Source of the DNA: Stegostoma tigrinum
Lineage: Eukaryota
Reading direction: 5' to 3'
Assembly (NCBI RefSeq): GCF_030684315.1
Contig: NC_081365.1
Span: 39,702,985 to 39,766,984, forward strand
DNA: 64,000 nt
Shown here: positions 2,386 to 50,255 of the stretch, one piece after another
Numbering within the stretch: the stretch's first letter is position 1
Layout: every line of letters begins with the position of its first letter
Made by a program: the position numbers and the translations under genes
The notes under the pieces: generated by a model
Told to the model about the DNA's origin: nothing
Databases searched by the model: none
The model's input: the letters and a program-made list of their open reading frames with translations, nothing else

Positions 2386-2413
2386 CTGAAGAAGGGTCTA
2401 GGCCCGAAACGTC
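2386..2413 (+). ncRNA. Minimal type-I hammerhead ribozyme motif
   Basis: CUGAAGA-A-GGG-UCUAGG-CCC-GAAA-CGUC. Confidence 0.75.
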
Positions 2414-19260: not shown

Positions 19261-19552
19261 AAAAACCTAAAGAAAGGCAGATGCTGTAATTCAGGAACAA
19301 AAACACAGTTGCTGGAAAAGCTTAGCAGGTCTGGCAGCATCTGTGAAGGGGAAAAACAGAGTTAACATTTCGGGACCGGTGACCCTTCCTCAGAACCCAG
19401 ACCCGAAACATTGAAGGGGAAAAACAGAGTTAATGTTTCGGGTCTGGGTTCTGAGGAAGGGTCACCGGTCCCGAAATGTTAACTCTGTTTTTCCCCTTCA
19501 CAGATGCTGCCAGACCTGCTAAGCTTTTCCAGCAACTTTGTTTTTGTTCCTG
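19261..19552. mobile_element. ORF-less palindromic PLE derivative (family 2) with two hammerhead motifs
   Basis: 123-bp arms 19290-19412 and 19432-19554, nearly perfect. CUGAGGA-A-GGG..CCC-GAAAUGUU on both strands. TSD aacagcttat(c/t)ttaat at 19245-19260 and 19553-19568. Confidence 0.85.
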
Positions 19553-19765
19553 AACAGCTTATTTTAATCCAGTTACGTTATCTTAGCTTTCTTAGTGGCC
19601 AGGGCAGGTTTTCATAATAAAAGTCATATTTTTATTACAATCAAACCTTCTGTAAAAAGGTAAATGTTAAGCAATTCCTTGTGAATTGGATAAGCAAACA
19701 AAACAAAAATAGTAGCCCTTGCACCTCTTGTAAGCAAAGTAGCAATAGTGCACAGATATTGGCTT

Positions 19766-20395
19766 TAGAACATAGAACATAGAACATAGAACAATACAGC
19801 ACAGAACAGGCCCTTCGGCCCTCGATGTTGCGCCGACCTGAGAACTAATCTAAGCCCCTCCCACTACACTATCCCATCATCATCCATATGCTTATCCAAG
19901 GACTGTTTAAATGCCCCTAATGTGGCTGAGTTAACTACATAGGCAGGCAGGGCATTCCATGCCCTTACCACTCTCTGAGTAAAGAACCTGCCTCTGACAT
20001 CTGTCTTAAATCTATCACCCCTCAATTTGCAGCTATGCTCCCTTGTACAAGCTGAAGTCCTCATCCTTGGAAAAAGACTCTCACTGTCCACCCTGTCTAA
20101 TCCTCTGATCATCTTGTATGTCTCTATTAAATTCCCTCTTAGCCTGCTTCTCTCCAATGAGAACAGACCCAAATCCCTCAGCCTTTCTTCATAGGGCCTG
20201 TGCTCCAGACCAGGCAACATCCTGGTAAATCTCCTCTGCACCTTTTCCAATGTTTCCACATCCTTCCTGCAATGGGGCGACCAGAACTGCACGCAATATT
20301 CCAAATGAGGCCACACTAGCGTTTTGTACAGTTGAAGCATGACATCACGGCTCTGGAACTCAATCCCTCTACCAATAAAACCTAAGACACTGTAC
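19766..20395 (-). mobile_element. CR1 LINE 3' end
   Basis: 177-aa ORF (PHLEYCVQFWSP..RFFTQRVVRAWNALP) and (catagaa)n tail. Confidence 0.92.
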
Positions 20396-21280
20396 AAAGT
20401 ATTTGTTTAGTATCTTCCCCCAGCTCCACACATAGGCAGCCTTGTTCATCTTTAAAGGGGCCGTATTGTCTCCCTAATTATTCTTCTGTCCTTAGCGTAC
20501 TTGGAGCATCCCTTTATTTCTCCCTAACCCGATTTGTCAAAGCTATTTCATGTTCCCTTATTCTTAGGTATCGAAGATCTCCCTACATATTTGCTTCTCA
20601 ATTTCCCCACTGGCTACTGAGGGGGTCTATAATACAATCCCAGTTAGGTGACCAAGCTTTTTTTATTTCTCAGTTCCACCCAAATAACTTCACTGGACAT
20701 CCTCCCAGAAATATCCTCCTTAAGTACAGCTGTAATGTTATCCTTAACAAAAAAAACACCACTCCCCACCGCCTCCTTTTCTGTTTACCATCTCCTCCAC
20801 TCCCTATAGTATCTATACCCTGGAACATTAAGCTGCCAGTCCTGTCCCTCCCTGAGCCATGTTTCTACAAAAACAATGATATCCCAGTCCCAACCTGAGG
20901 GTGCTGATACATTGCTCATTTGCATCCTGGGAGTGGGCTTCACAGTCAGCACAGGCATGAAGGGTATCATAGAAAAACGTGGTGTTAAGGAATGGGTCAG
21001 CCCAAACATTACATTACTGTAACCATAATAAAGAAAAGAGAGGAGACAGAACATTGTGAAAGGAAGGTCGACAGCCAGTGCAAGCCTAAACAACTTCCAG
21101 AAACTTTACAGTTGATATTATAATTGTAAATTACAAAGGAATAAAGGCTTGGCAGGAGAGCTCCAAATTGTAGTCTGTTCCTCTTGCTTGATGTGGGAAG
21201 CCAGGCATTTCCAGTGCCCATGAGCTGCATGCGTATACTGTGTCCAGCTGCAGCTCTTGGAAGCCCGAGTTTCTTAGTGC
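20396..21280. mobile_element. Older CR1 pieces: APE endonuclease (-, ~20400-20895) and 5'/ORF1 fragment (+, ~20915-21280)
   Basis: WDIIVFVETWLREGQDWQLNVPGY on minus; SCLMWE..CVQLQLLEARV on plus. Confidence 0.6.
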
Positions 21281-21419
21281 AATTTCCCCGAATGGCCTTT
21301 ATACTTAAAACAAAAACAGCTAGAATGAACATTATAGATACATATCATTACAGCAGATAGTTCAGCCTACAAAAAATTTTTTAAGAACGAATGACACCAA
21401 CGCCAGTGATGTCCTTTTT

Positions 21420-21772
21420 TCTTTATTCATTCGCGGGATGAAGGTGCCACCAGCTAGGCAGCATCTATTGTCCATCCCTAATTGCCCAGATGGTAGCTAA
21501 GAGTCAAACACATTGCTGTGGGTCTGGAATCACATGTAGGCCAGGCCAGATAAGGATGGCAGTTTCCTTCTTTAAGGGGGATGAGCGAACCAGATGGGTT
21601 TTTCCTGACAATCGACATGAGATTCACTGTCATTAGATTGTTAATTCCAGAGATTTATTGAATTCAAATTCCACCATCTGCCCTGGTGGGATTTGAACCT
21701 GGGTCCCCAGAACATTATCTGGGTGTCTGGATTAACAGTCCAGCAATAATACCACTAGGCCATCACTTCCCT
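21420..21772 (-). mobile_element. SINE family A, full length
   Basis: Reverse complement of the 8662-9012 type. Confidence 0.85.
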
Positions 21773-23783
21773 TATGGAGACAAGGGATGTAAAAATAAAT
21801 GATGAGGTTATCTGGGAAAAAAAAAGGAACAGTAGCCTCATGTCCCATTGCTGATATCAACTAGTCCACCAGCGTTTGGTTTCATGAAAACAAAGCAAAG
21901 CAGTCAGGTAGTGACTTGACAAAGATGCAATGCTGTACATGAGAAACCTCTACAATTGTAATTTTTGGACTGAGCAAGCTGGAGCCCTGCACTCAGGAGT
22001 CCAGCATAAAAAGGTGCTATTCTGCCTGAAGAGGATCCTGTTGTCAAGGTCCTTATATTTGACCCCAGGTGGAAAACTGCTTTTCCTCACTTCAAAATAC
22101 CAGCCTAAGCCATCTGGGCTGTGACACACTTTTGATGACCCAAACGGAATCACAAATGACAGATGTGACCAAAATAAGGAATTCCTAAAAAACGACAACG
22201 ATAAATGCATTCTAAAAAGATGACCGAGTTGGTGGTTTGCTATTACTTTGGCTATGTCAATTGACAAAGTTTTAGCCACACCATAAAAACGGAACTGGCA
22301 GCATTTATTCTAATGTAAAGCCAGACTGAGCCTGGCAACTGAGTCAATGAACCAAACAGCCACATGAATCAATTATTCCACTTTTTCATACCACCGCATT
22401 GGGGATCATTGTAATATGGAACAGGGAGTGGCAAACTACAAAGATATTTCCAGTCATGACAATCCTGGAGTATCAGAGTTCATCTGGATCTTAAATGGAA
22501 AACTTTGGTCCAACGTAATCACTTTCTTCTGCCTTCACATCAACCACAGAATTGGTTCTGCTTATGACAAAAACTATGACTGGTTTGCCTTCAAGCTCAA
22601 GTAACATAAAAGATAATCAGAGTCCTATTAGGTTTTCTGTAGACAGGTAGTTCAATTGCCTGCAAACTCCTACAGGTTAATACTGAATCAGAGTCCGAGT
22701 GTACTCTATCGATTGTAAAGCTATTCTGTTTAATATTCAGGGTCAAAATTCGACCCGTGGTCCTTTATCAAGAACAATTTTTTTCGTCACTTATATGAAA
22801 CAGAATTCTACCATAAGACCACAAAAACATCTGGTACAAATATGGACTGGTAGAATACTTTAAACTAATTTAATATGGACTTGAGTCACATTATGACTAC
22901 CATCACATACATAATTTCCCCATTATGCCCCATAACTCCCAAATGTTCCAGTCAGAGTCCCATATTGAAAATAGTGGTTACCCAAAAGTGTACACTGGTG
23001 ACTACAGTGAGAGGGGGGAAAAAAAATGGTGACATTAGATGAGAGGTCAACAATTAAAATAGTATGCTTGCATTGCTCCTTCCGTGCCTTCGTGTTTGTA
23101 TTTAAAAAGTCTACACACCGTAAGCAAAAGAACAAGTGTAAATTGAGAGCAAAAAATTCACAAACATTGCTGGCAGATCATTTGTACAATATGTAACTGT
23201 TAGTGAGTCACAATGGCATTTTAACTAATTATAAAACTCATTGTTAGCAGAAAGAAAGAAAAAAAAATCAGGCATATTTAGTCATTAAATGGCAATGAGA
23301 CTAATGGTCTGAAACTGAAAACATACATAAAAGGGAATGTCTTTTATTTGAGAAAGAGAGTCATACTTGTATCAAGTGCCAATTTTGCCACATTAAAATG
23401 ATGCAACAAATTCAAAGAAACCAACATATGCATCAACAGTACAGGACATTTAAAATAACCTCCAGCAACTGAAACATTAATTCTCTCCATACTGAATCTA
23501 GTGATGTCATAAACTGAAAGTAAGTGTGTTGTGGTATCCATCTATTGCATAGGCCAGACTACATCTCACACGTTTACTTGTCATGACATTAAAACAGAAA
23601 GCTTCAAAATCTGCCCTAATAGGTAAAAGCTATTAATCATATCTTCATTTAAATTTCCTGAATAGTGTAATTTTGTACCAGAGAGCAGCTGGAATAGAAA
23701 ATCGCAAACAATTGATGCACTGAATTATCCAGATAGAGGATACGATCACATCCTGCTTTCTAAAATGATGCATTTGTGTACTG

Positions 23784-23989
23784 AGATAATGGATTCTCCA
23801 GGATCTGCAGTTCCCAAGATAACAAAGTGTGAAGCTGGATGAACACAGCAGGCCATGCAGCATCTCAGGAGCACAAAAGCTGACGTTTCGGGCCTAGACC
23901 CTTCATCAGAGCTCTTTTGCGTCAGCTTTTGTGCTCCTGAGATGCTGCTTGGCCTGCTGTGTTCATCCAGCTTCACACTGTTATCTTGG
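23784..23989. mobile_element. ORF-less palindromic PLE derivative (family 1)
   Basis: Arms ~23815-23885 and ~23920-23989. TSD atttgtgtac at 23772-23781 and 23990-23999. Confidence 0.85.
23882..23909 (-). ncRNA. Hammerhead ribozyme motif, intact core with extended stem I
   Basis: AAGAGCU-CUGAUGA-AGGGUCUAGGCCC-GAAACGUC-AGCUUUU on the PTGFRN sense strand. Confidence 0.75.
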
Positions 23990-24133
23990 ATTTGTGTACA
24001 GGTGCTTTTATTAATCCAAGAACTTTACGGTTCCTAAACATGTCCACAACTATACTTCGTGTAGTCATGAGAATCTTTTCTTGTCCATTGAAGTGGTTTT
24101 CTTTGACATATCTAGATGTTGAAGTAACTCTTG

Positions 24134-24156
24134 CCCCCCCCCCCCCCCCCCCCCCC
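24134..24156. repeat. C23 homopolymer
   Basis: Direct count. Confidence 0.9.
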
Positions 24157-24479
24157 ACCCTGCAAAATGCCTGACTGCCGAGTCCATTACACAACATTAG
24201 GATTTTACCCAAGGTAAGGATGAGATGACTACCTTCACAGTATGCACCTACATGCAGGGTGCACATGACTACAGCAGACTAGGACCAACACATGTAACGT
24301 TTGTACTTCAATCCAAACATGGTGCTCTTGATATAAAGAACAATTGCACGCATGTACATTTTTAGTAGCTCCACAGTTACGCTGTTCGTAGGCATTAGCA
24401 GGTCATGACATTTTTTCTGTGCATGAACTGCACAGGGTTTTTAAATTGTACTAGTTCTTGTTTGCACGTTCTTGTTGGT

Positions 24480-26640
24480 TGTTCATCTGGATGATGTTAT
24501 TTTGCCAGATTGTAACATTCCTGTCATTTGTTAGTGTTGTGGTATCCATTGTTGCTTCCCCATGAGACTCTGGATCCAATTGTCAATGAATGGTATTCCG
24601 TGTCAGTGGTGCATTAACATCTTGTTGATCTACCCCCTGCAGTTGGGCAGATATACTTGTAGTCACAATGGCACAGTTGATCATTCACATCTACTTTGTA
24701 TGTTTGGGATGACAACTGCTCCATGCAGATCCCAAGTTGGGCTCGCTTTTGCTGACAGCATTGAATGTTTGCATACTGACTGGCTTGCCAATACTTGGTT
24801 CAAACCTAAGTTGAAACAGCCTTGGCAAAATGAAATTTTGCTATTTTCTCACAATCACCCGTTACTATCTCTGGTTTCAGTAGCTTTTTTGCTATTAAAA
24901 AGATAGAGTAGAGTGATGTGCGCAGTGACTCCGTTTTTGTCCTGTCCTACTTTCCATGCCTTCAGGTGCTGCATTTCTCCAGCTGGGTACTGCCTTACAT
25001 CTTTGTGGGATTGATTCACCCTCAACTTTTCCATTTGATGGGGGAAACAGTGTGGAAGTGATGTACAGAGTTGAATTTCCCACTCATGAACACAGAGCCT
25101 TTGGTCACTCGTAACAATGTCAGGAAAGCCATAATGACTGACATGCACTTGGAGGCATTCAACAACCTCAGCAGCAGCTACTGAAGTAATCTGGTCTGCC
25201 TCCCAGCAATCATAGCAGAATCCGCTAATGACAAGACAAATCAGTTTCTTGGTGTGTAAAGAAATTTATACCCAGCTTCTTCCATGTCTGTGATGTCACA
25301 TATCATCAGCAGCTCACCAGCTTGCTCAATTTGGTATTTATGGTACGCTATACTGGCTGATGTGGCCCTCAATTTCATTGTTCATTTTTGGCCAGTAAAA
25401 AGGATCTCTCTTACCTTCCTCAGACTTCACTTATGTTCACTGGTGACTTGTATGGATGGGCTTTAGAACATAGAACAGTAGAGCATAGTACAGGCTCTAA
25501 GATCAGGCTACCTGTATCCCGTAGATTTTACTATCACCCATGTGCCTATCCTAGAGTCACTTAAATGTCCCTCATGTACCTGACAAGTACCATCTCTCCT
25601 TACAATTCCTTCAGAATAAATGGCTATTTTCTTTGTACAATATGCCATCTTCAGCTGTCAATTCATCTCAAAATGTACCTGTTGCTACATCAGGTACATG
25701 CTTAATGCTTCATGCCATCCCTTTATCATAGCTTCTTGCCACAGGTAGGATGAGAGATTTGCATCTTGTTAGATAGCTTGTTTGATTGGACTAAGGCTCC
25801 CACTTCTTATAACGAGTGTCTTGGTACGTCAACGATTGCTGATTGGTGTTGAATCTGGAAGATTTCATCTGTTGTAGCACCCTGCACGTGCTCTCGCCAA
25901 CACATCGACAATACGCAGTTTTCCTTACTTGTGTGCAACATTCAGATGGTAGCTCTGACGTTCTCTGCAGGTAGTTTGGAGCCGACAGCAGCAGCTAAGG
26001 AAAACACTTTGAAGTGACTCGTGGTCAGAGTCAAATGTCACTGACTCATCCAAATGTGAATTGTTGAAAATATTCAGAAGCCAAAGACAATGACTGAGCA
26101 TATCATTTGTTTATGGATGCAAATGCACCTAGTTGACCTTGCTGCATTCGGGCTGTTCCACGCCCTGTCTCCGTCACAACAGATCATGATATTTCAGCAC
26201 TGGTATTGCCATCACTAGGTTGCTTGATTTTAGTGAGAACTAATCCTTGTTCTGCACCCCAGTACAACCACATAGCCTTGGATGAGGTAGCATTATCGTT
26301 CACATCACGACGAAAAATAAAGAAAATCAAACAAATAATTTGCGAAAAAGTTGACAAATCCAACAAGTCATTAGCATGCTTTCACATCTATTGGTTGCTG
26401 CATAGTTGTGACAGCTCTCACCTTAAGACTTGGGCAAAGGTGAGGCATGCACACAAAGGTCTACGTAGTCGACTTCCAGCATCAATAGTGATCTTCCCTT
26501 CAACTTTCATGTTCACTTGGTGAGCTATCAGTCACACTAGGTTTTGATCGAGACCAATGACGGCTATTTCCATTGCCCTGCCGCATCCACAAAGTGAACT
26601 AGCGACTCCAGGTCGATCACAAACTCACGTTATCTGTGTT
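24480..26640 (-). mobile_element. Decayed Ty3/Gypsy pol (RNase H - integrase)
   Basis: SDHESLQSVF...YHLNVAHK*GKLRIVDVLARA (RNase H end), YGFPDIVTSD and TSTLFPPSNGKVE (integrase core). A short CR1 3' piece is nested at ~25463-25590. Confidence 0.75.
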
Positions 26641-26956
26641 TATATTTTTTGAGCACTAAGTGCCTAACATACACAACCACCTATATCACTTCAAGAGCAT
26701 CAGAACGTAGTTTTTAAAAAACCCTCTAACTTCACATGCCAGCAACCATCCTTGGCATGGCAAATCCAGAACCAGAATTAGGAGAAGCAAGTGATTGACG
26801 TAGCTGTAAAAAATGAAACTAGATATATTTACGTCTCCAAAGAATACTGGAGAGAGATGCTGTCAGTATTAGGTAGAAAATTTACTCAAGAGAGGAAATG
26901 TTCAACTGAGAGTAAAAATTCCACCCACAGCCCGAAGTTCAGGCTTGACATTCAAT

Positions 26957-27072
26957 GATAACAAAAGTGTGGGGCTGGATGAACACAGCAGGCCAAGCAG
27001 CATCTTAGGAGCACAAAAGCTGATGTTTCTTTCTGAGTGTTACTTTAGGATGAAGTGTCTAGGCCCAAACGT
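26957..27072. mobile_element. Degraded PLE terminus fragment
   Basis: gataacaaaagtgtggggctggatgaacacagcaggcc... followed by a decayed core gatgaagtgtctaggcccaaacgtt. Confidence 0.65.
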
Positions 27073-27208
27073 TGTTAATGAGAAATTTGTTTTAAAAACC
27101 ATATAGATTCCTCTGGCAGTAACAGTCATGGATGCTTGAGTTATCATTATACTTAAAAAAAAGTATGCAATCTAATCTGTTACATTTTAGGTGCTGATGT
27201 TACTTCAG

Positions 27209-27403
27209 ATAACAAGGTTTAGAGCTGGATGAACGCAGCAGGCAAGCTGACAGTTCGTGTCTGGACCCTTCTTCAGAATTCAGAAGGGTCCAGACCCGAA
27301 ACGTCAGCTTTCCTGCTCCTCTGATGCTGCTTGGCCTGCTGGGTTCATCCAGCTCTACACCTTGTCATCTCAGATTCTCCAACATTGGCAGTTCCTACCA
27401 TCT
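27209..27403. mobile_element. ORF-less palindromic PLE derivative
   Basis: Fold-back centre cccttcttcagaattc-agaaggg; both cores damaged. TSD ctgatgttacttcag (27194-27208) and ctgacattgcttcag (27404-27418). Confidence 0.8.
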
Positions 27404-27959
27404 CTGACATTGCTTCAGTCAGGCGTTCTGAAAATTGTATTAAATTATAAATTGTTACACGTTGTTGTGAAGGTTGTCCTTTATTCGTTTTTAAGAAAGC
27501 GGAATGAAATGAAAACTGTTTTCAAAAGGAGGGTTGAAAAGTTTGACCCAGTTTTGGAAGTAAATAATCTAACACCCATTGCAGGTAATTTTAACAACTG
27601 CTAGAACCAGCAGTAATTGAAGTTCAGATTCCTAAATGTGTGGAGGTGAGGGTACCTACTGATTCTGTTGGTTGCAGTTGCCAATGATTGGTCTCTTGCT
27701 TGCCAGCAACTGAGATTGGATCAAGGGTGGGTGAGCAACTTGGAGCTGGAAACAAGTTACAAAGAGCTACCATTCAGCAAAAAGTACAACTGACCAGTGA
27801 GAGACCCCAAACTGAGAGTCTCCTCCCAGCCCAGAAGCTACCTGTTCTCTGCAGACAAAAAAAAATTCATTTTAAACACTGAAAAACACTTACTTTTCCT
27901 ACAGCAGTTGCTGTGACTTTTAAATTGATAAATCAAGAGACATTTTCCAAATTATTTAT

Positions 27960-36310: not shown

Positions 36311-36443
36311 ATTTAGAAAAGAATTGCAAGATAAAGCACTGACGAAGTAACGGAGGGTAAACATGAAAGGCATCTTTCCAGTATAAGCTAAGTGTATTCC
36401 TTAAAAAGGTAGATTAGATCATCTAAAAACGTAGGTAATATTT

Positions 36444-36565
36444 TGGGTCGTGACGCCGAAACACTAACTGTTTTTCCCTTCACAGATGCTGTCAGACCTG
36501 CTGAGCTTTTCCAGCAACTTTGCTTTTGTTCCTGATTTACAGCATCCAATGTTCTTTTGGTTTTT
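36444..36565 (+). mobile_element. PLE terminus fragment (family 2)
   Basis: Matches the right arm of the 19261-19552 element plus the tail. Confidence 0.7.
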
Positions 36566-39082
36566 AAAAACCTGGGTGGCTGGGAACGAAAGTAACTATT
36601 GAAATAAGACAAAATTTCATTTTGGACAATTGTCAACTATTTTTGTTTTTTTTTTCCCCCCAGTCTTCCGTAAAGTTTAGAAAAGCATTTCACAGAAGCA
36701 TTACAAAGTTAAATTAGGCACCGAAGAAAGGACTTGGGTACATAACTTGATTGACAAGGTTGGCTTTAACAAAGAAGACAGGCAGAGATTTAGGGATGAG
36801 GCTTCCTAATTGAAAGGCAGGATAGGTCTGAAAACCTGAGTGGTCAGCTGCTACATTGCTATTACCCCAAATCGCTTTCAAGCCAAGAAAATTTGAGGGT
36901 TAAAAATCTACAAATAATTAACAACTGAAGGGCTGTGAAGAATGAATGGAAACAAAATTTCAGAACTCCAGCTTGGTCTTTAAATCTTACAAAGTGGATA
37001 CAATCTTTGGGCCGAAGCGATGGAATAATTTTGCCAGTATGACAGTGTTCATTTGGAATAGAAGAATCAGCACAACACGTGCAGGAGAAGGCAGATCAAT
37101 GTCAAAAACAAAGCAGGAACAGTACAGTTGGAGGCAGCAAGAAAGCTCCTATCAGATAGTGGGAGAAACTTAGGACAATCCTTTTTAAAGCAGCTTCTGA
37201 ACTCCACAGTGGACCAGTGGGAAATAGCCAAACTGAAAAACACCTCATCGACTATCAAGTGCCAGATTGTATAGGTTCTCTATCTTGGCAAAGTGCAATG
37301 GAAGATAACTATTCAATTTAAAACAAATGAGTCTTGAAAAACACTGGGGCTGGGAAGGGGGTTTAAACCCATCCACAAGGGGCCTGCAGCTGATGAGAAC
37401 CTAGTTGGGTAGGTCTGCTTGACGCAGAGCTTGCTTCCTGTCAGGAGAGAGCAACTGCCAGGCACCTAACACAATTCTTCTTCTCTCTCCACCACCACCC
37501 CACCCCCCCAACCCGCTTCCCTGCTGAAACCTGGAGGAGAAAATCCAAATTAGTCTCCTTTAATTGCTTTGTGGCCCTTAATAAGCCATTCCATGACAAG
37601 GGCTGTATGGAGGCAGGGAAATGTTACACCAGGCAAGCTATTTTTGACTCCCATTGTTAGTAGACTATAGCGTAGGAAGGGGAAGGGATTAGGTGGCTTC
37701 AAAATCAAGCCCTTAGTTTTTCCACGTAGGAGGGGGCACAAATAATTATAAAAAGAGCGAAGGCCAACTGTTATGCCAGATTTTATTTCATTTCAGCATT
37801 AAATGCATAATGCTATTTGACGTGAGATAACAATGTTGTTACAAGATCATTACTGAAATTTTCCTCTGTGTCATCAGGACTACCATTTGAGTAGTCAAAA
37901 AAATAAAGTTATGAAAAGATGGACTGGAATATTTTAGGTCGTGACTTAGGCCAATGCTGGTATAATATATTTTACAAGTCTAGTAATAAAATGTTTTTTC
38001 TAAAAACCTAACCTCAGGATCAAGGTATCAGAAAGCATTTCATATCCAATTAAGCCTAAGGCATAATCATGGTTTTGTACACAATCAATGTTCCCAAAAC
38101 AGAATATGGGACAAACAACAACTTAATCTGTTTTTTCAAAGGTGTTTGTTAGGGGAAAAAACACAAGTAAAGACACTGAAAGAACTATCAACACTTTAGA
38201 TACCATCATTGAATATTTCACATTCACACAAGACAGTAACTCAATTTAACATCTCAAACATCTATAAAATTCAAAGAATAGCACCTAAGTGTCAACAGCT
38301 GACATGCTTAATTCCTGGAACAGAGTTTGGAATTACAATCTCTTGACGCAGACAAAAATGATACTAAACAACTAGAAAAGAAAGATAGTATTGTGTCCCT
38401 TTACAATCCATTCTTTGTATGCTGTAAGTAAGATCAAAGTTTCAAATACTAGTAATGATTATGCCTATATCAGGCATCAAAATGTTTATCCTGAAACTGC
38501 ACACAGTTTGACAGTGCAGAGTTGATTTTACTTACCCAATGTATATTTCACCAGATTCAGAAATCAGGCATTTTGCACTTCAACTGTTAATCATTATGCA
38601 GAATCCACATGCATTTTACGATTTGCAATTCTCACGAAGGATCAAGGATAGTCAGGGTACTAAAACCAACAGTGCTCAGTGGGAAAGGAAAACTAACTTG
38701 GAACTGTCTTGCATGTTATAGGATTCTTAGCAGTATCGCAATTCAACCCTAAGGCCAGTTATGTACTTTCATAAATCGTACAGAACCTTGATTAGGCACT
38801 ATGTCAACAGGTTTGCACTTTGCCAGGATTGCATGCACATACCTCAAAAAAAAGTTCTAACCAATTATAGTTTAATGCAAATTAGAATTGCCAAGTTCAG
38901 AAAAGCAGCAGCTCCTCTTGATCGTTATTCTTCAAACTTAGAAGATTTTCAACCCTGTTAGTTATTTTGAAAAATCTGGAATTAAACAAAACAGATAGCA
39001 ACAGATCTCATTCCTTGATTGGTAGCATTTTTGTTTTCAATCACAGTGGGTCAGGTTGCATCCATGGAAAGAAAGCAAGCAG

Positions 39083-39205
39083 AGCTCTGAAGAAGTCAGA
39101 CTCGAAACATTAGCTTGGTTTCTCTCCACTAGTGCTGCCTGACTTGCTGCAATTGCCAGCATTTTGTTTCAGTTCAGATTTCAGAACCTGCAGTAATTTG
39201 TTTCT
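39083..39205 (+). mobile_element. PLE terminus fragment (third family) with hammerhead-like core at 39087-39111
   Basis: AGCU-CUGAAGA-AGUCAGACUC-GAAACAUU-AGCU, followed by sequence resembling the family 2 terminus. Confidence 0.6.
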
Positions 39206-39934
39206 AGATCTTACTCCATTGCTGTCTTTAACTTAGTTACACAAATTGTAGTGAAACTCTCAGAAAACAACTATTTCCTAACACAATAGAAAAGATAAAG
39301 ATAAAACCTCAAAACACATATCAGCAACTGCCTCAAGAACTGCAGGGGTATATTGTTGGGAAAAGCAGAACAGGTCTCTTATAATTACTGAGTTATTCTA
39401 ATTTTTGTTCTGGTGTTTAACACAAACTTTTGGAGAAGTTGCTTTGAACTGTTATTTTCTCAAGCATTTACTCTGCATCAACATTTGAAAAAAAAACCAA
39501 GCTGAAACTCTTGCAGGCCACTAACAACTGATTTTAAAAAAAACTTTTCTTCCTTGCACTTGAAAATTATTTGCCACTGACAGGGCAAGCTCCACTCTCA
39601 GTGGAACTGAAACTGAAACAGAAATAGCATGGCAGTAAATCTACTGCAGAAAGCAAAACCCTCTAAAAGTAAATCCATGAGGGGATAGTAGCTGCTCAGA
39701 ACAAAAAAAAAATTAATTGGAACAAATACTTTTGCAACATAGTTAGACTAGGAGACTCTCAACTCTTCACATTCCTCACACTAAGTATCTGTTGCCAAAC
39801 TAATTATACTGTTAACATTGTAAAAACTTCAACTACAAGCTCACTGCTGGTACAGTTGCGATAATATCTTCCAATACCAAATCACCTTGGAGTGTCATGC
39901 AAGCCTTAATTTTATTTTGGTTAGAACATGGTTT

Positions 39935-42900
39935 GGTGATGTTGGTGTAGTTGAAAGGCTTAGGACTGGGGACTCTGGGTTCAAATCCCACCATGGCAGA
40001 TGATGGAATTTTAAATTAAATTAATACTGAAAGAAAGTTAGTTTACTCACTGCTCATTTCTGCAAAGAAATGAAAACTTCTGGTTCACCAATGTCCTCGT
40101 GGAATGAAAATCTGTTGTCCTTATCTGGTCTGGCCTACACATAATTGCAGACTCACAGTAATGTGATTGACTTTCAACTGCCTACTGAAAATGACCTGGC
40201 AAGCAATTCAGTTGTATCAAACCACGAAGAGCAAATAAAGGAATGAAACCAAGAAGATAACCCAGTAATGACAAAGTCCTCTTACCAAGATCTGGGGGCT
40301 TGTGCCAGAATTGGGAGAGCTGTCCCACAGACTAAACAAGCAACAGCCTGAGGTTGTTTGTGAAGTATGATTCTAAAAAAATTATGTGCTGGAAACTACT
40401 AAAATCATCCAAGTGTTTTTGTGCCCCACTAGCAGGGCAGGCCCACAGGAGGTGGCAGCACAGCAGTACACAATCTGTGAGCCTTAACCTGTACTCCAGA
40501 AACCATTGCGTCAGGTCAAATATGGGCAAAGAAACCTCCAGCTAACAAATCAGTACTCCTCCATATTGAACACAATCCGGAAGCATCCGAGTTAATGGTA
40601 ATGGCACAGCATGTACTTTGGATGGGGAATTTCAATGTCCATCACCAAGACTGGCTCACTAGCAACAGTGAGTTTGCAGAGCTGTAAAGAGTACAGCAGG
40701 TCTGTGACATGTGCTGAAGGGACCAAGGGGGGAGAAGTTCTTTTTGACCTCATCCTCACCAATCTATTCGTAGCAGATGCTTCAGCCATGATAATGTTGG
40801 TAGGAATGGCCAGTGCTCAGTTCGTGGAGACGGGAGTTGCATCTTAACATTGAGGACATTGTCCATCGTGGTGTGTCAACAAACAGCATGCCAAATAAGA
40901 AACTTCGAACAGATCTGGCAATTCAAATCTGGGCACCAAAAAGGCACAGTAGATTATCAGCAGATGGTATTCAACCACATCTGCAACCTTATGGTCTAAC
41001 ACATGTCCAGCTCTCTCACTAACTAAGATTGACTGCTCAGTTTGATGGTCGAGAAATACTGCAGGAAGGAAAGCAGAAAGTAGCACCAGGAATACTTAAA
41101 AGTGCGATGTCAAACAGGCAAGGCGCGTCAAACAGCAGAAGCATGTGCAATAGACAAGGTTATATGATTCCACAACCAATGGATCAGACCTAAGCTCTGC
41201 AGTCTTGCCATATCCAGACGTAAATGGTGGGGGACAGCTAACACGAGTTGGAAGCACAAGGATTCTCATCCTTAAAAGATGGGGGTGCCCATCATATTAG
41301 TACAAAAGTCAAGGGTGAAATATTTGCATCTCAGCCAGAAGTTCTGAGCAGATGATCCATCATTTTCTCCTCCTGCAGTCCCTAACACAGATTATATCAT
41401 TCATTCTGATATAATTCATTCTACATGATATCAGGAAACAGCCGAGACAATGGATAATGCAAAGACTGACAAAATCATGATAACAACACCAAAGAATCTT
41501 TTCTCCAGAGCAAGCCACACCATTAGCCGAGCTATTCCAGCAAAGCTGCAATACTAACCCCTACTCTGTTTTCTCTGACCTTTGCCTCAGAAGGTTTGCG
41601 GACACCAATTGGACTGCAGAAGCGTAGAAGCAATGACACATAGTACTGGAAGCTTCTCCTGTGTATAGAATTCAGAAGATAATGTGAAGTCAGGAATGCT
41701 CAGAGGAAAAGCAGCCACTATCCAACAATTCCACTCTCAATCATCAGCAAAATGATGGAATGGTTCATAGATATGGACATAAAGTTACACTTGTGAAGTA
41801 ATGGTCTGGTCATTGGATTCTGCTAGGGCCACTGAGCATCTGATCTCATCAGAACCTTGATCCATACATGGACATAAAACAAGGGAGCTGAATTCCAGAC
41901 AGAAGTCAAGACTGACTGCTTTTGGCATCAACTGAATTTGAGACACAGAGACTGAACAAAACTGGAGTCAATGAGAATAGAGGGGAAAATACTTATGACT
42001 CATAACTGGAAGTAAGACAAACAGACAGTTGCAGATAACAAGGTGTGAAGCTGGATGAACACAGCAGGCCTGGCAGCAGACAAACAGGAACGCTGACGTT
42101 TCGGGTCTGGACCCTTCTGCAGAACTGGGAGAGGGGAAGGGGGTTCTGAAATAAATAGAGAAGGAGGGGCGGTGATAGCAGGTGGATAGTACAGCAGATA
42201 GGGGAGAGAGAAGACGGACAGCTCACGGAGGCAGGGGTGAAGCTAGTAAAGGTGAGTGTAATAAGGAATTTGGGATGGGGGGTTGGTCAGTGAGGTGGGA
42301 GGAGCACCTATCCACCCTTCTCACCTCACTGACCAAGCCCCACCTCCACTTCCTACCTACACTCATCTTTACCAGCTCCATCTCTGCCTCCTGGAGCTGA
42401 ACATCTTCTCTCCTACCTATCTGCTCTACTATCCACCTGCTATCACCGCCCCTCCTTCTCTATTTATTTCAGAGCCCCCTTCCCCTCTCCCAGTTCTGCA
42501 GAAGGGTCCTGGCCTGAAATGTCAGCTTTTCTGTTCCTCTGATGCTGCTTCGCCAGCTCCACACCTTGTCATCTCAGACCCCAGGATCAGCAGTTCCTAC
42601 TATCTGAGACAGTTTGCAGTTGTTGGAGATCAATCTCCTCACCCCCAGGACATCACTGTAAGCAGTGCCTCTCAAGGTCGTGAGTTAGTCCCAGCCATGC
42701 TTAGTTGCTTCATCAATTACCCTCCCCTCATTATATGGTCTCAAGTAGGGATGCTCTTTGATGAATACACAACATTCGGAATGAGTCAAGACTCTCCAAA
42801 TCCTGAAATAGTGCACGTTGAAATGCAGCAATATCTGTACAACACCCAGACTTGGACTCATAAGTGCCAAGAAACAATTGCGCCAGACACACCAGGCAAT

Positions 42901-43630: not shown

Positions 43631-43644
43631 CGAATGATGTCCAT

Positions 43645-43727
43645 TTCCGAAGGAGGGTCTGGGCCTGAAACATCAGCCTTCCTGCTCCTCTGATGCTGCT
43701 TCGCCCAGCTGTACATTGGTTATCACT
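43645..43727 (+). mobile_element. Degraded PLE terminus
   Basis: ccgaaggagggtctgggcctgaaacatcagccttcctgctcctctgatgctgc is a decayed core plus terminus. Confidence 0.6.
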
Positions 43728-44780: not shown

Positions 44781-45479
44781 TTTTGAACTGTTGTATACAG
44801 TTACAAGTTAACAATGACTGCAAGGACAAAGTAATGGGGTGTGACTGGCAGAAGTGAAATTATACTTCAATTAAAAAGAGAGAGAAAAACCAGCAAAACA
44901 AAAATCTGAACTACACTTGGTAACTCAATACCGTGATCCCATACAAATTACTTGCAATAAGGTGTGGCTGCAAACTTCTTTTTTGGAGAAATGTTTTTAG
45001 GGCATCACTATGGCAGTAACGTGGCCAGAAATAAACAGGTACAAACATCAAAATGGAAGAAAATTTTTTAGAAACTACCAGCCCAAATATTACGCTAAGT
45101 GAGCAGATTGCACGATTATTAGGGAGTCAGTGTGACTAACTCCAGAATGAAACAGAATGATCTCAGAGTCTGGAAAGATTAATCACCGAGACTGCATTCA
45201 GCTTCTTTCTAAATAAAGGGCTCAAAGTCCAAACATTACCCTCTAAAAGGAATTTAATAAAAACTGACACTTAAATAGAAACAGGTCTATAATTGCTAGT
45301 GAGAGTTTAAAAGAAGTGACAATTCAGATTTTCCTTTCAGGAACATGGATTATTACATTCAGATGTGTGGTAGACCCAGGTGGTGTTAGGCTGCTGAGAT
45401 GTGTCAAACATTATTGAACATTACCTTTATAAATAATGCATTTTCTGAAATACAACTTAGGGCCCCATTCGTAACCACC

Positions 45480-46760
45480 CTAGATAAAATAACATTTCCG
45501 GCCGGTCAGGAGAGCAAACAGAGATTCAAAAGTTCAAGTCATATTTGGAGGTGAAGGCGAAGAGGAGACGATTGTATGCTGGGTCGCATGCTACCTTTTC
45601 CTTTTTCCTGAGGTGCAGAAATAAATACGTTTTAGCACTGTCCACACGAGTAAGTGAACACAGGCAGCGAATCTGCACAGTCATTAATCAGGAATCGCTG
45701 CCCGGGCTCGTCTCGGTTGAAAAAAAACTCAAAAATTTAAACTGGGAACACAGAGGACAGAAAAGGGCGACTAACACCATGCGCCGAGTTTAAATTAATT
45801 TCGCAATCACACTTCCCAGAAAACATTCAAAAAAACCTTCAAAGCAAATAAGAAACCACACAAAAAAAATGAAGAAAAGATTATTGGGAGAGTCGAACCA
45901 TAGGAACAGCTCTAATAAATGAAGCCAGGGTCTGGGGAGAAATAAAAAAATCACTAGAGAATAATTTCCCGAGATCAGCAGCTTCAAGGGTGAGGCAGAT
46001 TGTGAATTAACAGGGAAACAAAGTCCGATGTTAACAGAAGCCGAATGTGCTGAGAGTAGTTATAAAACCAGGGCAAACGGCTTGGGAGTGTTTCAATGGA
46101 TCGTGTGTATCTCGTGAAACGCTTTCACACTGTCCTCACTCGGCACTTTCCCCGGGGATCACAGCGCTCTTATCCCACGTCCCCCTCTCACAGCCCTCGG
46201 CTCGGCGTTCACTCCCCGTCCCTCAGCATCGCAACCTCCGGGACTACTCTCAGGAGAGATGTGAGAACACAGGGTTAGTGTTAGGGGAATAGGAAATTCA
46301 GAGGTTTTTTCACCGCAGCCAGCGCCCTCACACTTACCCCAACTAACCACCAGAAGCAGCAGCAGCAGCAACAAACGCTCCATCCTCTCCCAGGATCTGC
46401 CTTTCTGGCAAACACTCCCCAAACTCCCCGAAGAGAGGATAAAAAAAATCCCTCCCCCTCTCAACTGGAGCCTTTCCAGCAGCTCACTCTGTCTCCAGGT
46501 GGCACTTCTTGCAAAATGAGCCAATTCCAAACAGAAACTCCAAACTTCTTTTTTTTAAAACTTGAACTTTATCTATTGCCAAAAAGTTTATTTTATCCTT
46601 GAGAACGTAGAAAGCCCAAAGCGAACTTTAACAGTCAAACACTCGGAAAGTTTTTGATCTTTCACTACAAGAGTCCAGACGGAAACACCCAGGAACTTCC
46701 CCTTCTTTCAGGTAATTGGCTCCGTTAAAATGGGAGGGCAGGGACGTCAGGCGACACTCA
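45480..46760 (-). promoter_or_regulatory. CpG-enriched promoter/first-exon region of PTGFRN
   Basis: Local excess of CpG without a recognisable repeat around exon 1. CRE-like TGACGTC at ~46743-46749 and NF-kB-like GGGGAAGTTCC at ~46692-46702 (minus strand); motif function is not shown. Confidence 0.55.
46338..46383 (-). CDS. PTGFRN: PTGFRN coding exon 1 (signal peptide MERLLLLLLLLVVSW-G)
   Basis: ATG in good Kozak context (AGGATGG), poly-Leu hydrophobic core, donor G|GTAAGTG at 46337. The 46 nt end in phase 1 and join exon 2 in frame (G+GA=Gly, then LILG-RVVKVP). Lies in the most CpG-enriched non-repeat region. Confidence 0.85.
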
Positions 46761-47099
46761 AAAAAAATCAAATGATTACAATCCTGCCTCATGGGAACTT
46801 TTATTTTCTGCAGTTGGAAGCTAGGTTATTTGTTCATGTTCATCGATATTCCGTCGTTGGAAAGCATTGGGATCAATGCACATTATGATTTGGCGTTGGC
46901 ATTCGGTTGCTGAGAGTTATTATCACTTCCTCTGCGAACATTCGGCTCAAACTGCAAATAAGTGTTAAAGACACATCCTAATTCAAATTGGATAACTAGC
47001 ATGGTTTTGCCAACGATGGATGTTGTGCAACATAAAATCAATTCACACAAGAAAAAAGAGCAATCGATCTATTTTCCTGCAATCACAATCGATTCACAC

Positions 47100-47380
47100 T
47101 CCTAGGGTTGAAGGTTCAAACTTCACGTCTCAGACTTGAACCCAATAGTTAAGCACTGAAGAAGTGCTAAACTGAGAGAGGCGTAACATCTCAGATGAAG
47201 GTAAAAGGAAAATAGACACTTTGGCATTATTGGGAGAAGAGCAATGGAGCTTTCCCATTGTCCTGGATAAAATGTGTCCCACCACCAACACCAAAGTTGG
47301 TAATCTGATCCTTTGTTTCGTTGCTCTATGCAATATGATTGCTGCGTTGCCTCCAATTCAACAGTGACTAAATTTCAATT
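47100..47380 (+). mobile_element. Degraded Deu-type SINE upstream of the PTGFRN promoter
   Basis: gaagagcaatggagctttccc..tgtcctgg..caacagtgact pattern. Confidence 0.5.
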
Positions 47381-50043
47381 CCATCTGTGGATGATTACTG
47401 AAATTTAGTTGAACTGCTTGCTGACACCATAACACATGGCATAGACTTTTTGAGTACCATGGTTAATTCCATCTGAGCTCAACCAGATAAATTAGTACAG
47501 CATCAGTTCCCAAATTAATTGCACATTTTTTGCTTTCACTTCTCTACCTAGCAGAATTTGACTTTTACTTATATGGACATGATTCTTTCTATGTAACAAT
47601 TTAGGTTTTTTTCCAAAAAGGAAGTTATCCTTTTAACGCCCTTCACTAATTTATAAGTTATCAAAAGATCATTTTGTAGCCACCTTTAAAAGGTGAAAAA
47701 TACAAGTTGGTACAGCCTTTTCTTTTGCTTCAAACCTCTAACAGTAGGGGTTCAACTTTAACTTGCCCAGTAAGAAAGAACCACCACTTTTACATCATTG
47801 ACATTATTGGCATGTAAAAACACATACTGAGTAAAATAGTTTTGTTGATCCAATCCCATCAGTTTTCTGCTGGGTGGATTACCTTTTAATTAGCCGTAAA
47901 GAACCATTTTTGTATCTTCTCTCTGGATTCTTACCAATGTTATATGTGCTCTTGATGATTTAATGTTTAAGTTTGGGCACATTTTGCAAAGTGTGGTCAA
48001 GCCAGAACACTATTCCTGCCATCTCTTCACAGGATGTGGCAACATTGGCTAGACCAGTATTTATAGCCCATCCCTTTATTGCCCTTAAAAAAGTTGCCTT
48101 TTTGAAATACTGCTGTCCCATTGGTGTAGCAGCACCCACTGTGCTGTCAGGAAAGGGCTATAGGATTTTAATCCAGTGACAGTGATGTATGGCTTGGAGG
48201 TGAATTTGCAGGTGGAGGTGGTGCCCATTGCAATTATTCATGCCCCCTCCAAATTTATATTCTAATGTTTTATCTGTACAAAGCAGCATTCTGTTTGATT
48301 TGTTGATTGCTATCACGTAGGGATTGAACATGAGCTACAAATTTACTAAAATGAATAGGTCTTTTACATTTCTCTGAGAGATTTCACAAATTCCACGGGG
48401 TACATATATTTTTCATTTTTTGTTTCTGTAGACAGTGCTTTATATTTACCATATGAATCTTTACCTTCTGTTGTTACATTTATTTACATAGCTTGCCAAA
48501 TGATTTTACAGGTCCAGAGCAAGTTCCTTCTTGTGATAGGTTTGTGTGACTGATCCATATTACTAATCCTACTATGAGACAGTATGGATCTGCAGAATAA
48601 TTCCTTAGACTCATCGCCCAGCATTTCTTACACCAGCATCTTTCACACCTAACTGCCTGTTTAAAAAAATTTTCATGGTTTTTGTCTATTTCAAAATGTC
48701 TCTGAAGTTTCTCGAGCTCCTATTGTCTGTAACTCATCTTCCATGTACAACTTGGTTAAGTTATTTCAAGTTGGAGGGTTTCCACAGCTACCACTTCCTC
48801 AAGTTGCACCTAGATGCTAAAAGTAATGAGACCTATAACAAGTTCACAGCTTGTAAAAGAAGCTAAAAGCAGGACTGTCTCTGGCTTAATGTGGAGTAGA
48901 AGTTATACATGGGTGATCGAAGGTCATCAAGGAACTAAAAATTGTTAAAGATAGCTATTAAATGAAGACAATTATGGGCTTTCATTTTAATTCAACTCAA
49001 TTCCAATTTATTGTCCATATGGAAATTCATTTTGGCCTCATTTTGTTACATATAGCTGTATAATGACAGTTAAAAAAAGAGAATTATTCAAAGAGATTTA
49101 ACTTTAATTTACAACTATTTCAATGCATTAGAATAATTTGTCAGTAATTCCCACAGTTGATACTTATCCTCAAACGTACAAAAGTGCTGCTAAAGATGCT
49201 TATAAAGAAGGGCCCATAAAATTTGTAAAACCAATCTGTCCTGCATCTGAAGAGTTGTTGCCTTCTCTTTCACAATGAGATAAGGATCATTATTCCTGAC
49301 AGTCTTTCATCAAATTTCTTCAACACTAGATTTCATCAAGAAATATTTACTCAACAAATGCCCTGTCTGATTCAATACTTTAGTTTATTCATTCATGAGA
49401 TGTAAACCAGACCAGCATTTATTGCCCGCCACTAATTGCCCCTGAGAAGGACATGATAAGCTGCCTCTTTGAACCTGCCAAAGTCTTCTGGTTTACCCCC
49501 TGTGTTGCTTTTGAGGGATTTCCAGGATTTTGATCTAGAAACAATGGAAGAGTAACAATATTGTCCCAAATTATGATGATATATGGCTCAGAAGGGAACT
49601 CGCAAGTGATGGTATTTCTATACATTTACAGATTCTCGAACATTGTTGAAGCTTTATCCGTTCAGGCACGTGGAGAGTATTTCATTATGCTGTTTGTCGA
49701 TGGTGGACAACTGCACCAGGCAAGATATCCAAAAAGAATAATGCTCTCAGCTGCTGCTGTAGAGAAAGGCTTCAAGTTTAGAGGATTTGCTCAAAAGGAC
49801 TTTAATATTCTGAGGTGACATAATTGTTTGTTCCTTTGCCACTGCATCTGAATATTGTTCCATCCTGTCATAAAACATTTTAATAAAAGCCCCTTTACTA
49901 GTCACGAGATAACATTTGCAGAACTGTAGTCAAGCAGGCTGGACAAAAGGAGGAAAAATGAGAGGAGAGAAGAATAAATAAAGATATGAGATACATTAAG
50001 GAAGAAGGACGCACAAGAAGATAAATCACTAACATTATCACTT

Positions 50044-50255
50044 AGAATAGGAATTGCAGATGCTGGAGAATCTGAGATAACAAGGTGTAGAGCTGGATGA
50101 ACACAGCAGGCCAAGCAGCATCAGAGGAGCAGGAAGGCTGACATTTCGGGCCTAGACCCTTCTTCAGAAATTCTGAAGAAGGGTCTAGGCTGGAAACGTC
50201 AGCCTTCCTGCTCCTCTGATGCTGCTTGGCCTGCTGTGTTCATCCAGCTGTACAC
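50044..50255. mobile_element. ORF-less palindromic PLE derivative with two hammerhead motifs
   Basis: Centre cttcttcag-aaatt-ctgaagaag; cores at 50140-50167 (-) and 50173-50200 (+). TSD aa(c/t)attatcactt at 50031-50043 and 50256-50268. Confidence 0.85.

What the first reader, a model, noticed from the sequence alone, without database searches (positions are those of the whole stretch)
19261..50255. Recurrent ORF-less 200-570 bp palindromic elements made of two back-to-back ribozyme termini, with long TSDs
Seen: five insertions (19261-19552, 23784-23989, 27209-27403, 42035-42606, 50044-50255) consist only of two inverted PLE 3' termini, each with a 10-16 bp TSD. In three the fold-back point falls within a few nt 5' of the CUGANGA core (centres cag-agct-ct, cag-aatt-c, cag-aaatt-ctg). 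In every case only one arm carries the ~30-40 nt distal tail. Inference: either a MITE-like non-autonomous class with a hammerhead on each strand, mobilised by the PLE RT/GIY-YIG protein, or a stereotyped snap-back of cDNA at the ribozyme during integration. The same geometry in two sequence families suggests a mechanism rather than chance.
Basis: partly seen in the sequence, partly recalled or inferred. Interest (0 to 1): 0.75.

Follow-up and report, generated by a model that had tools for sequence, protein, structure and literature searches.

The report
Penelope stubs primed from both ends
These five short mirror-image insertions are real stubs of a common jumping gene in a layout already described, likely made anew each time when both cut ends of the target DNA copy the front of the element's RNA, and their ends likely mark where that RNA starts.

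Summary
All five palindromes are real, with 12-16 bp TSDs and a one-sided 29-34 nt tail. They are the shortest form of the published endonuclease-bearing Penelope-like (PLE) layout; the linked ORF has a Neptune/Nematis-type linker. They are not one MITE family: centres and subfamilies differ, and one-armed copies start at the same place. That place, 2-4 nt 5' of CUGANGA, is a genome-wide hot spot. A conserved TATTTAT box about 31 nt upstream suggests it is the transcription start, so the RT likely runs off the RNA there rather than being turned by the ribozyme. Best model (0.6): both target strands prime cDNA at the two known internal RT starts, and the two cDNAs are joined head to head. Snap-back is the rival (0.22). 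Only 4 of 10 arms keep a complete hammerhead core with the first helix II pair intact. Arms were homogenised after insertion: element 1 is shared with a relative 7.7% diverged, yet its arms match 122 of 123. This scan reported the same stubs at least eight times elsewhere in this genome, and arm homogenisation once in another genome.

The parts
19245..19260 (+). E1 left TSD (16 bp; right copy 19553-19568, one mismatch)
19261..19289 (-). E1 tail (29 nt), family B
19290..19396 (-). E1 tail-bearing arm, starts -3/-4 of CUGAGGA; minimal hammerhead core 19364-19393
19397..19447 (.). E1 51-nt central insert: 36-nt local copy of the arm (19412-19447, 4 differences from the arm) plus its exact 16-nt mirror ending at the predicted cleavage site; typical genome-wide copies skip it
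19448..19552 (+). E1 tail-less arm; hammerhead core 19451-19480; arms plus mirror identical at 122 of 123
19553..19568 (+). E1 right TSD
23772..23783 (+). E2 left TSD (right copy 23990-24001, 11 of 12)
23784..23911 (-). E2 tail-bearing arm, subfamily A1, starts at -2; intact core 23882-23909; tail 23784-23813 with a 27-nt microinversion (23790-23816) also covered by a contig of a second sample
23912..23989 (+). E2 tail-less arm, starts at -2; hammerhead core replaced by 4 nt
27194..27208 (+). E3 left TSD (right copy 27404-27418, 12 of 15)
27209..27278 (-). E3 tail-less arm, subfamily A2, starts at -2; 23-nt internal deletion; GAAA>GAAC
27279..27403 (+). E3 tail-bearing arm, starts at -2; TGA lost from the core; tail 27371-27403
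42023..42034 (+). E4 left TSD (right copy 42607-42619, one indel)
42035..42297 (-). E4 tail-less arm, reaching about -185; core reads CUGCAGA; homogenised patch 42109-42190
42322..42606 (+). E4 tail-bearing arm; TATTTAT at 42461-42467 (-35); homogenised patch 42428-42509; tail 42573-42606
50031..50043 (+). E5 left TSD (right copy 50256-50268, 12 of 13)
50044..50170 (-). E5 tail-bearing arm, subfamily A2, starts at -3; core 50140-50167; tail 50044-50074
50171..50255 (+). E5 tail-less arm, starts at -2, ends about 10 nt short of the usual tail-less end; helix II damaged
839..2475 (.). Longer sister with the same layout: tail arm to about -1250 (RT thumb/linker/GIY-YIG remnant, CX4CxxC at about 1693), tail-less arm to -177, 14-bp TSD 825-838/2476-2489
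18019..18153 (-). One-armed family B copy with tail, starting at -2; 10-bp TSD candidate (9 of 10)
43641..43710 (+). One-armed subfamily A2 copy starting at -3 to -6; no clear TSD
56340..57935 (-). Long tail-less one-armed copy, RT-GIY-YIG remnant (92% to P0001 residues 10-241)
59283..60268 (.). Head-to-head locus: tail arm to about -270, other arm from -842 to -179 (right end lost, no TSD)
63124..63503 (+). One-armed A1 copy with tail and 14-bp TSD; TATTTAT at 63343-63349 (-34)

Best explanation
Each palindrome is a cut-short, head-to-head insertion of a Penelope-like retrotransposon end, likely made afresh by twin priming rather than copied as a unit. Inferred steps: (1) the GIY-YIG endonuclease makes a staggered cut, leaving two 3' overhangs of 12-16 nt (the TSD). 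(2) One overhang primes RT at the distal internal start (about +125, the tail end) and the other at the proximal start (about +90 to +97, the tail-less end). (3) When these starts are those of the 5'-most pLTR of the transcript, both cDNAs run off the RNA after about 95-130 nt, at 2-4 nt before CUGANGA, the predicted transcription start. (4) The two cDNA 3' ends are joined almost bluntly. (5) Later template switching or conversion between the arms rewrites parts of the mirror. Shown here: layout, TSDs, subfamily identity of arms, end hot spot, one-armed copies with the same start, TATTTAT spacing, patchy arm identity. Inferred: priming on both strands, the promoter, the joining step.
For: PLE link: the same terminus caps RT-GIY-YIG remnants at 839-2209, 56340-57935 and 59678-60268 (tblastn 77-92% on the best stretches against shark proteins P0001/P0002). 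Layout: published inverted-pLTR plus one-sided tail plus TSD. In vitro, the anole PLE protein cuts and extends both target strands, starts RT at two internal sites that delimit the tail, uses uncleaved RNA and is predicted to be a dimer (PMC11167929).

Hot spot: 6 of 14 PLE-end loci with a visible 5' end in the window start at -2 to -6, and 2 more are uncertain. P is about 7e-4 for a uniform 100-nt span, corrected for the number of windows. In contigs of public runs, loose ends joined to unrelated DNA pile up at -3 (539 contigs in X1, 132 in X7) and -1 (684 in X1) among the 6 rows shown per run. Family B head-to-head joints concentrate at -3/-3 (56/45/38/28 contigs in four runs), -3/-2, -2/-3, -4/-3 and -3/-4 (15 of 7634 joints shown).

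Tail-less end as an RT start: a tail-less one-armed copy (56340) and head-to-tail joints from +93 to -1 (36/32/27/6 contigs). At 59283 the tail-less arm reaches -842 and the tail arm only -270, and the two share two variants absent from three A1 copies. A mirror copy of either cDNA cannot give that. TATTTAT starts at -34/-35 in 7 of 8 long arms (the eighth has one change), which puts +1 at -3/-4 by the usual TATA spacing (recalled); subfamily A2 has CCATTTC, an initiator match (recalled consensus), with its A at -4.
Against: No RNA data: the transcription start is only predicted. The D. virilis Penelope promoter is internal and TATA-less, and its intron ends at the 5' side of hammerhead helix I (PMC2377424, PMC4209133). 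So a splice acceptor is a rival reading of the polypyrimidine stretch; E4 even has CCCAG|TT there. E4 is nearly symmetric at about -185, which independent truncation of two cDNAs does not predict. The copy at 36437-36564 has an 8-nt mirror extension of helix II that looks like true self-priming. The 59283 locus lacks its right end and TSD, so a single event is not proven. The contig joints are marked 'between: not known' and could hide spacers. Arm homogenisation can erase the original centre. The in vitro element is a Poseidon, whereas this one has a Neptune/Nematis-type linker. Family B is not linked to an ORF in this window.
Confidence: 0.6

Rival explanations
1. De novo snap-back: one cDNA from the tail start stops at the RNA 5' end or at a hammerhead helix, folds on itself, copies itself back to about +93 and is joined to the second target end.
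For: Symmetric arms in E2, E3, E5 and E4 (about -185 on both sides). Both arms always of one subfamily. The copy at 36437-36564 mirrors helix II by 8 nt. Some contig joints stop in loop II (19374->19448; 6/5/2/7 contigs). PMC3846280 proposed self-priming for junction palindromes, though on an antisense template.
Against: It does not explain why the second arm ends at the site that is an RT start in the anole PLE in vitro, nor tail-less one-armed copies and head-to-tail joints. Zero-spacer centres (E2, E3) leave no loop. At 59283 the tail-less arm appears longer. At 839-2475 the arms differ by 1.1 kb with no microhomology at the joint.
Confidence: 0.22
2. MITE-like non-autonomous family: a palindromic master is transcribed and retrotransposed, or otherwise moved, as one unit.
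For: Similar size and centre in E2, E3 and E5; very many sister joints in contigs.
Against: Five elements, five centres, and three sequence groups that match different long copies. A read-through RNA would be one long hairpin that buries both hammerheads. The exact tail-less boundary would have to be recreated at the RNA 5' end. One-armed copies share the start. The termini are asymmetric, unlike TIRs.
Confidence: 0.06
3. Twin priming is right, but the hot spot is not a transcription start. It is set by RNA processing (a 3' splice site at helix I) or by RT stalling at the folded, protein-bound hammerhead.
For: In D. virilis the intron ends at the 5' end of helix I. There is a polypyrimidine tract just upstream and CAG at -5 to -3 in E4. 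The hot spot coincides with the 5' strand of helix I.
Against: Most long copies lack AG there. Loose ends carry unrelated AT-rich DNA (agreement 0.36-0.45), not a shared upstream exon. A stalled RT would be expected to stop 3' of the structure, not after passing it (inference).
Confidence: 0.1
4. Assembly or polishing artefact.
For: E1 arms are almost identical, and no listed contig spans any element's centre.
Against: Diverged TSDs, arm-specific deletions, and junctions recovered in contigs of a second sample (E1 left, E2 left) and of a relative (both E1 ends).
Confidence: 0.02

Closest known systems
EN+ Penelope-like element insertions with inverted pLTR, optional 30-40 bp tail and TSD (Adineta vaga Penelope, PMC3846280; overview PMC8557442)
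   Same: Head-to-head inverted copy, shorter by the tail; tail on one end; TSD; palindromes at the inverted junction; heavy 5' truncation.
   Different: Here both arms are often cut to about 95-130 nt with no ORF, and the ends pile up within 3 nt at the hammerhead's 5' edge. TSDs are 12-16 bp versus 8-10 bp in the passages read.
Dual minimal hammerheads 100-700 bp apart on opposite strands (Schistosoma PLEs; PMC4209133)
   Same: Two min-HHRs on opposite strands in truncated PLEs; same core with palindromic ACGU at 15.1-16.1.
   Different: Mentioned there in one sentence, without ends, TSDs or mechanism. Here the cores are about 4-6 nt apart in the shortest cases.
PAc (Poseidon, Anolis) in vitro reaction (PMC11167929)
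   Same: Two internal RT starts delimiting a 30-40 nt tail; both target strands cut and extended; uncleaved RNA as template.
   Different: Different clade. The main text read (parts 1-2 of 4) does not derive inverted insertions from these results; its supplements were not seen.
L1 twin priming (Ostertag and Kazazian 2001; seen only as cited in PMC2246262)
   Same: Both sides of the break prime cDNA, giving an inverted segment between TSDs.
   Different: In L1 the two segments are neighbouring, non-overlapping parts (recalled). Here both primers start about 30 nt apart, so the segments overlap and form a mirror.
Non-LTR retrozymes (bioRxiv 10.64898/2026.07.22.740005)
   Same: Short, ORF-less, type I hammerhead-bearing derivatives of PLE pLTRs; head-to-tail joints of the -1 to +93 unit are seen.
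   Different: Retrozymes are direct tandem repeats. These are inverted pairs whose ribozymes lie on opposite strands.
Template-switch homogenisation of short inverted repeats (PMC8604942, abstract)
   Same: Arm homogenisation (E1, E4) and spacer inversion (E2 tail).
   Different: Shown there in yeast genes. Here it is inferred in retroelement stubs from one relative and patchy identity.

Membership tests
EN+ Penelope-like element | Single ORF with RT and C-terminal GIY-YIG endonuclease linked to the terminus | tested here: met
   Family A terminus is continuous with RT-GIY-YIG remnants; homologues P0001/P0002 hit GIY-YIG and RVT_1 weakly (one of three hits above its cut-off). The five stubs carry no ORF themselves.
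EN+ Penelope-like element | Same link for family B (E1) | tested here: inconclusive
   No long family B copy in the window; same hammerhead, arm length and tail layout only.
EN+ Penelope-like element | Minimal type I hammerhead in the pLTR (CUGANGA, extra nt after A9, G10.1-C11.1, GAAA, palindromic 15.2-16.2, UH) | tested here: met
   Met in intact copies by inspection against PMC4209133; complete in only 4 of 10 stub arms; not detected by Rfam.
EN+ Penelope-like element | Inverted 5'-truncated copy, one-sided 30-40 nt tail, TSD | tested here: met
   5 of 5 stubs and the copy at 839-2475.
Penelope/Poseidon clade | No CX2-5CxxC linker before GIY-YIG | tested here: not met
   CNRRRCYTC is present at about 1693; definition from PMC8557442.
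Neptune or Nematis clade | CX2-5CxxC linker between RT and C-terminal EN | tested here: met
Neptune or Nematis clade | Placement in an RT phylogeny | not tested
   No reference PLE RT set was fetched.
MITE / unit-propagated non-autonomous family | Copies share one internal structure and descend from a palindromic master | tested here: not met
   Different centres and subfamilies in 5 of 5; small sample, no whole genome.
MITE / unit-propagated non-autonomous family | Symmetric terminal inverted repeats at both ends | tested here: not met
   One end carries a 29-34 nt tail outside the mirror.
Non-LTR retrozyme | Two or more direct tandem units, each with a type I hammerhead | tested here: not met
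   The arms are inverted; one hammerhead per strand at most.
Active hammerhead ribozyme | Self-cleavage | not testable with these tools
   Minimal hammerheads need a second copy on the same RNA (PMC4209133); a read-through stub RNA is predicted to be a plain hairpin.

The most novel reading that the evidence does not exclude
The stubs are the genomic 'strong-stop' products of a PLE. A dimeric RT primes on both strands at its two internal starts and runs off a capped RNA that begins at the first base of hammerhead helix I, 31 nt after a TATA-like box. A minority copies RNA already cut by the ribozyme. The very numerous shark stubs would then map the promoter, both RT starts and in vivo cleavage at base resolution, and would explain the inverted pLTR plus tail of all EN+ PLEs.
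Probability: 0.35. Interest if true: 0.65.

Novelty: new member of a known kind. Interest (0 to 1): 0.4.

Why it matters
How PLEs make their inverted repeats and one-sided tail is stated as unresolved in PMC8557442. The 2024 in vitro work explains the tail but not the inversion. A genome full of minimal stubs with sharply defined ends makes this testable by counting: twin priming predicts loci with a longer tail-less arm or mixed-subfamily arms, and snap-back forbids them. In practice, these stubs should be annotated as PLE fragments, not MITEs or miRNA hairpins (Rfam gave sub-threshold miRNA hits). Arm identity should not be used to date them, because the arms are rewritten after insertion.

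Tried and rejected
Whole-genome census: no genome is held for this window, so the genome-wide evidence is only the truncated tables of two contig overlays. Those showed 15 of 2653 joints and 24 of 7476 loose-end rows, and 15 of 7634 joints and 24 of 11425 loose-end rows.

Empty sites: the stretch laid held E1-E3. For E2 and E3 the table was cut before the relative's contigs reached them, so there is no result. For E1 the relative is occupied, not empty. No RNA holder listed. A 25-nt terminus pattern found 0 matches in metagenome contigs. Rfam found no hammerhead. Pfam found no relevant family in the window's own broken PLE frames.

A two-copy cofold of the minimal hammerhead gave an extended duplex, not the ribozyme fold, so it is uninformative. 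The arm tree on about 92 nt has weak support and was used only for the A1 versus A2 split (0.96/0.89). The pile-up at 59315 is partly caused by a private variant in my reference at 59314, so tail-less ends are read as +91 to +97, not one base. Joints at 18116/18119->19448 are compatible with arms ending at the ribozyme cut (18121), but an indel in the reference prevents a firm reading. The symmetry of -3/-2 and -2/-3 counts is not evidence, because the E1 arms are interchangeable as references. My first label 'Poseidon' was dropped after the linker test.

Paper searches that showed no description of these shark stubs or of PLE twin priming: (open-licence library only; Repbase/Dfam entries and subscription papers not searchable; supplements not read).

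Full report
Observation. The five palindromes are at the stated coordinates. Each lies between 12-16 bp direct repeats: E1 15 of 16, E2 11 of 12, E3 12 of 15, E4 12/13 bp with one indel, E5 12 of 13. Such scores are reached by 0-1.5% of 600 random position pairs. Each element has a 29-34 nt tail outside the mirror on one side only. I number positions from the C of CUGANGA. E2 and E3 turn at -2/-2 with no spacer, and E5 at -3/-2. E1 has arms starting at -3/-4 with a 51-nt insert between them. E4 turns at about -185. The hammerheads are mostly broken: a complete core with the first helix II pair remains in 4 of 10 arms. Rfam does not detect them; they were read against the minimal hammerhead described in PMC4209133 (parts 1-2 of 4 read).

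What they belong to. The terminus of E2-E5 also caps longer copies at 839-2475, 56340-57935, 59283-60268, 63124-63503 and 63816 onward. Several of these carry RT-thumb/linker/GIY-YIG remnants matching shark proteins P0001 and P0002. The host is therefore probably a shark (inference from the homologues' names). The CX4CxxC linker fits Neptune/Nematis and excludes Penelope/Poseidon by the definition in PMC8557442 (passages); no RT tree was built. E1 belongs to a second family with the same layout and no ORF in the window. The layout itself is published: an inverted 5'-truncated copy shorter by the tail, a tail on one side, a TSD and palindromes at the junction (PMC3846280 passages; PMC8557442 passages). 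PMC4209133 mentions dual minimal hammerheads 100-700 bp apart on opposite strands.

Not a unit-propagated family. The five have five different centres. E2's arms group with the long A1 copies, while E3 and E5 carry A2 variants. The copy at 839-2475 has the same layout with arms of about 1380 and 270 nt, so the stubs are the short end of a series. A read-through RNA would be a single hairpin, and the two hammerheads lie on opposite strands, so they cannot form the same-RNA dimer that minimal hammerheads need.

The hot spot is real and does not depend on fold-back. Of 14 PLE-end loci with a visible 5' end, 6 start at -2 to -6 (E1, E2, E3, E5, 18019, 43645) and 2 more may (39087, 26957). In contigs of public runs laid on 59200-63560, loose ends joined to unrelated AT-rich DNA are among the top rows at -3 (539 contigs in X1, 132 in X7) and -1 (684 in X1; A2 copies clip there on an A1 reference). 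On 17700-27900, 5 of the 15 joints shown join E1's two arm starts at -2 to -4, led by -3/-3 with 56, 45, 38 and 28 contigs in four runs. Only the best-supported rows were shown, and the letters between are marked as not known. Upstream, TATTTAT begins at -34 (A1) or -35 (A2) in 7 of 8 long arms, with one variant in the eighth. By the usual TATA spacing (recalled) that puts +1 at -3/-4. Against this, the D. virilis promoter is internal and TATA-less (PMC2377424 passages) and its intron ends at helix I, so a splice-related end is a rival.

Mechanism. The anole PLE protein cuts and extends both target strands, starts at two internal RNA sites that delimit the tail, prefers uncleaved RNA and is predicted to be a dimer (PMC11167929, parts 1-2 of 4 read). 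If the two 3' overhangs of one staggered cut prime at these two starts, the product is exactly TSD, tail arm, tail-less mirror arm, TSD. This twin-priming reading was already stated in earlier notes of this scan. I had gone in favouring fold-back and changed my reading after testing it. For it: a tail-less one-armed copy (56340); head-to-tail joints from +93 to -1 (36, 32, 27 and 6 contigs); zero-spacer centres; no microhomology at the 839-2475 joint; and the 59283 locus, whose tail-less arm (-842) exceeds its tail arm (-270) while sharing two variants with it. That locus lacks its right end and TSD. Against it: E4 is symmetric far from the hot spot; the copy at 36437-36564 shows an 8-nt mirror of helix II; some joints stop in loop II. 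Snap-back therefore probably occurs in a minority, or later arm expansion mimics it.

Arms are rewritten after insertion. E1 is present in organism B. One contig runs 25 nt into its tail, and contigs of three runs start 14 nt inside its other end. B's flanks differ at 161 of 2104 positions (7.65%, seven contig pieces, gaps not counted), yet E1's mirror matches at 122 of 123 (P = 6e-4; 0.049 at half that divergence). Inside E1, a 36-nt duplicate differs from the arm at 4 sites but is identical to its own 16-nt mirror. In E4, 83 columns have 1 mismatch within 252 columns holding 36; 0 of 20000 shuffles gave so long a stretch, and the patch includes a core change found in no other window copy. 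E2's tail has a 27-nt inversion between short inverted ends, covered by a contig of a second sample. These match template-switch homogenisation and spacer inversion (PMC8604942, abstract only). Caveats: no listed contig spans a centre, lineage rates are unknown, and polishing could contribute in E1. The homogenisation weakens the use of arm identity or centres as birth records. I noted it; a similar case in another genome appeared.

Novelty. The structure is a known PLE insertion type, so these are new members. I did not find the end hot spot, its promoter-like spacing or PLE twin priming in the open-licence library. Other papers were seen only as search listings. bioRxiv 2026.07.22.740005 was read in part 1 of 5 plus passages, and PMC2246262 in two passages. 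No supplements were read; those of PMC11167929 and PMC4209133 may bear on ends and shark-like motifs, and Repbase/Dfam could not be checked. The scan has reported this at least eight times in this genome. Interest 0.4: ordinary in kind, but useful as a countable record of an unresolved mechanism.

Noticed in passing
window 36424-36577: One-armed family B copy with a 13-bp TSD candidate (11 of 13) whose 5' end is an 8-nt mirror extension of hammerhead helix II, ending at the predicted cleavage base; true snap-back or later arm expansion.
   Followed up: partly
window 26957-27073: Sixth, broken head-to-head locus: tail-less arm stopping at +20, then a sense piece from -3 with a 14-nt insert that ends at the predicted cleavage site; no TSD found.
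   Followed up: partly
window 39080-39215: Third terminus family, one-armed, with a 5-nt mirror (CAGAG|CTCTG) centred at -2 of CUGAAGA.
   Followed up: partly
window 23790-23816: 27-nt microinversion inside the E2 tail, covered by a contig of a second sample.
   Followed up: yes
contig joints 59315->63376 and 63501/63506->59315/59319: Head-to-tail joints of the -1 to +93 unit (retrozyme-like) and tail-to-tail joints (27-61 contigs in organism A runs), pointing to multi-unit insertions elsewhere in the genome.
   Followed up: partly
window 63120-63433: Subfamily A1 has about 10-20 times more summed contig depth in organism A than in B (a poor measure). B's contig leaves the window sequence at 63108, the start of the TSD, so this insertion is probably absent in B: a likely recent expansion.
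   Followed up: partly
window 60265: Organism B contigs carry up to 582 letters before 60265 that are unlike the stretch laid: probably a deletion here that removed the right end of the 59283 insertion.
   Followed up: no
window 19767-21281: One organism B contig joins 19766 to 21282; about 1.5 kb including a LINE fragment is absent in B.
   Followed up: no
window 5522-6106, 12979-13497, 15147-15701 (minus strand): Exons with Ig V-set domains, resembling the PTGFRN/IGSF3 family (name recalled, not tested); the stubs lie upstream of these exons, possibly in a long first intron.
   Followed up: partly
window 53096-54770: LINE reverse-transcriptase ORF remnant (RVT_1, E 3e-32), CR1-like by recalled sequence; related fragments near 10911 and 20062.
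   Followed up: no
window 43706 and 42559: Two separate copies have lost nearly the same 14-nt stretch downstream of the hammerhead.
   Followed up: no
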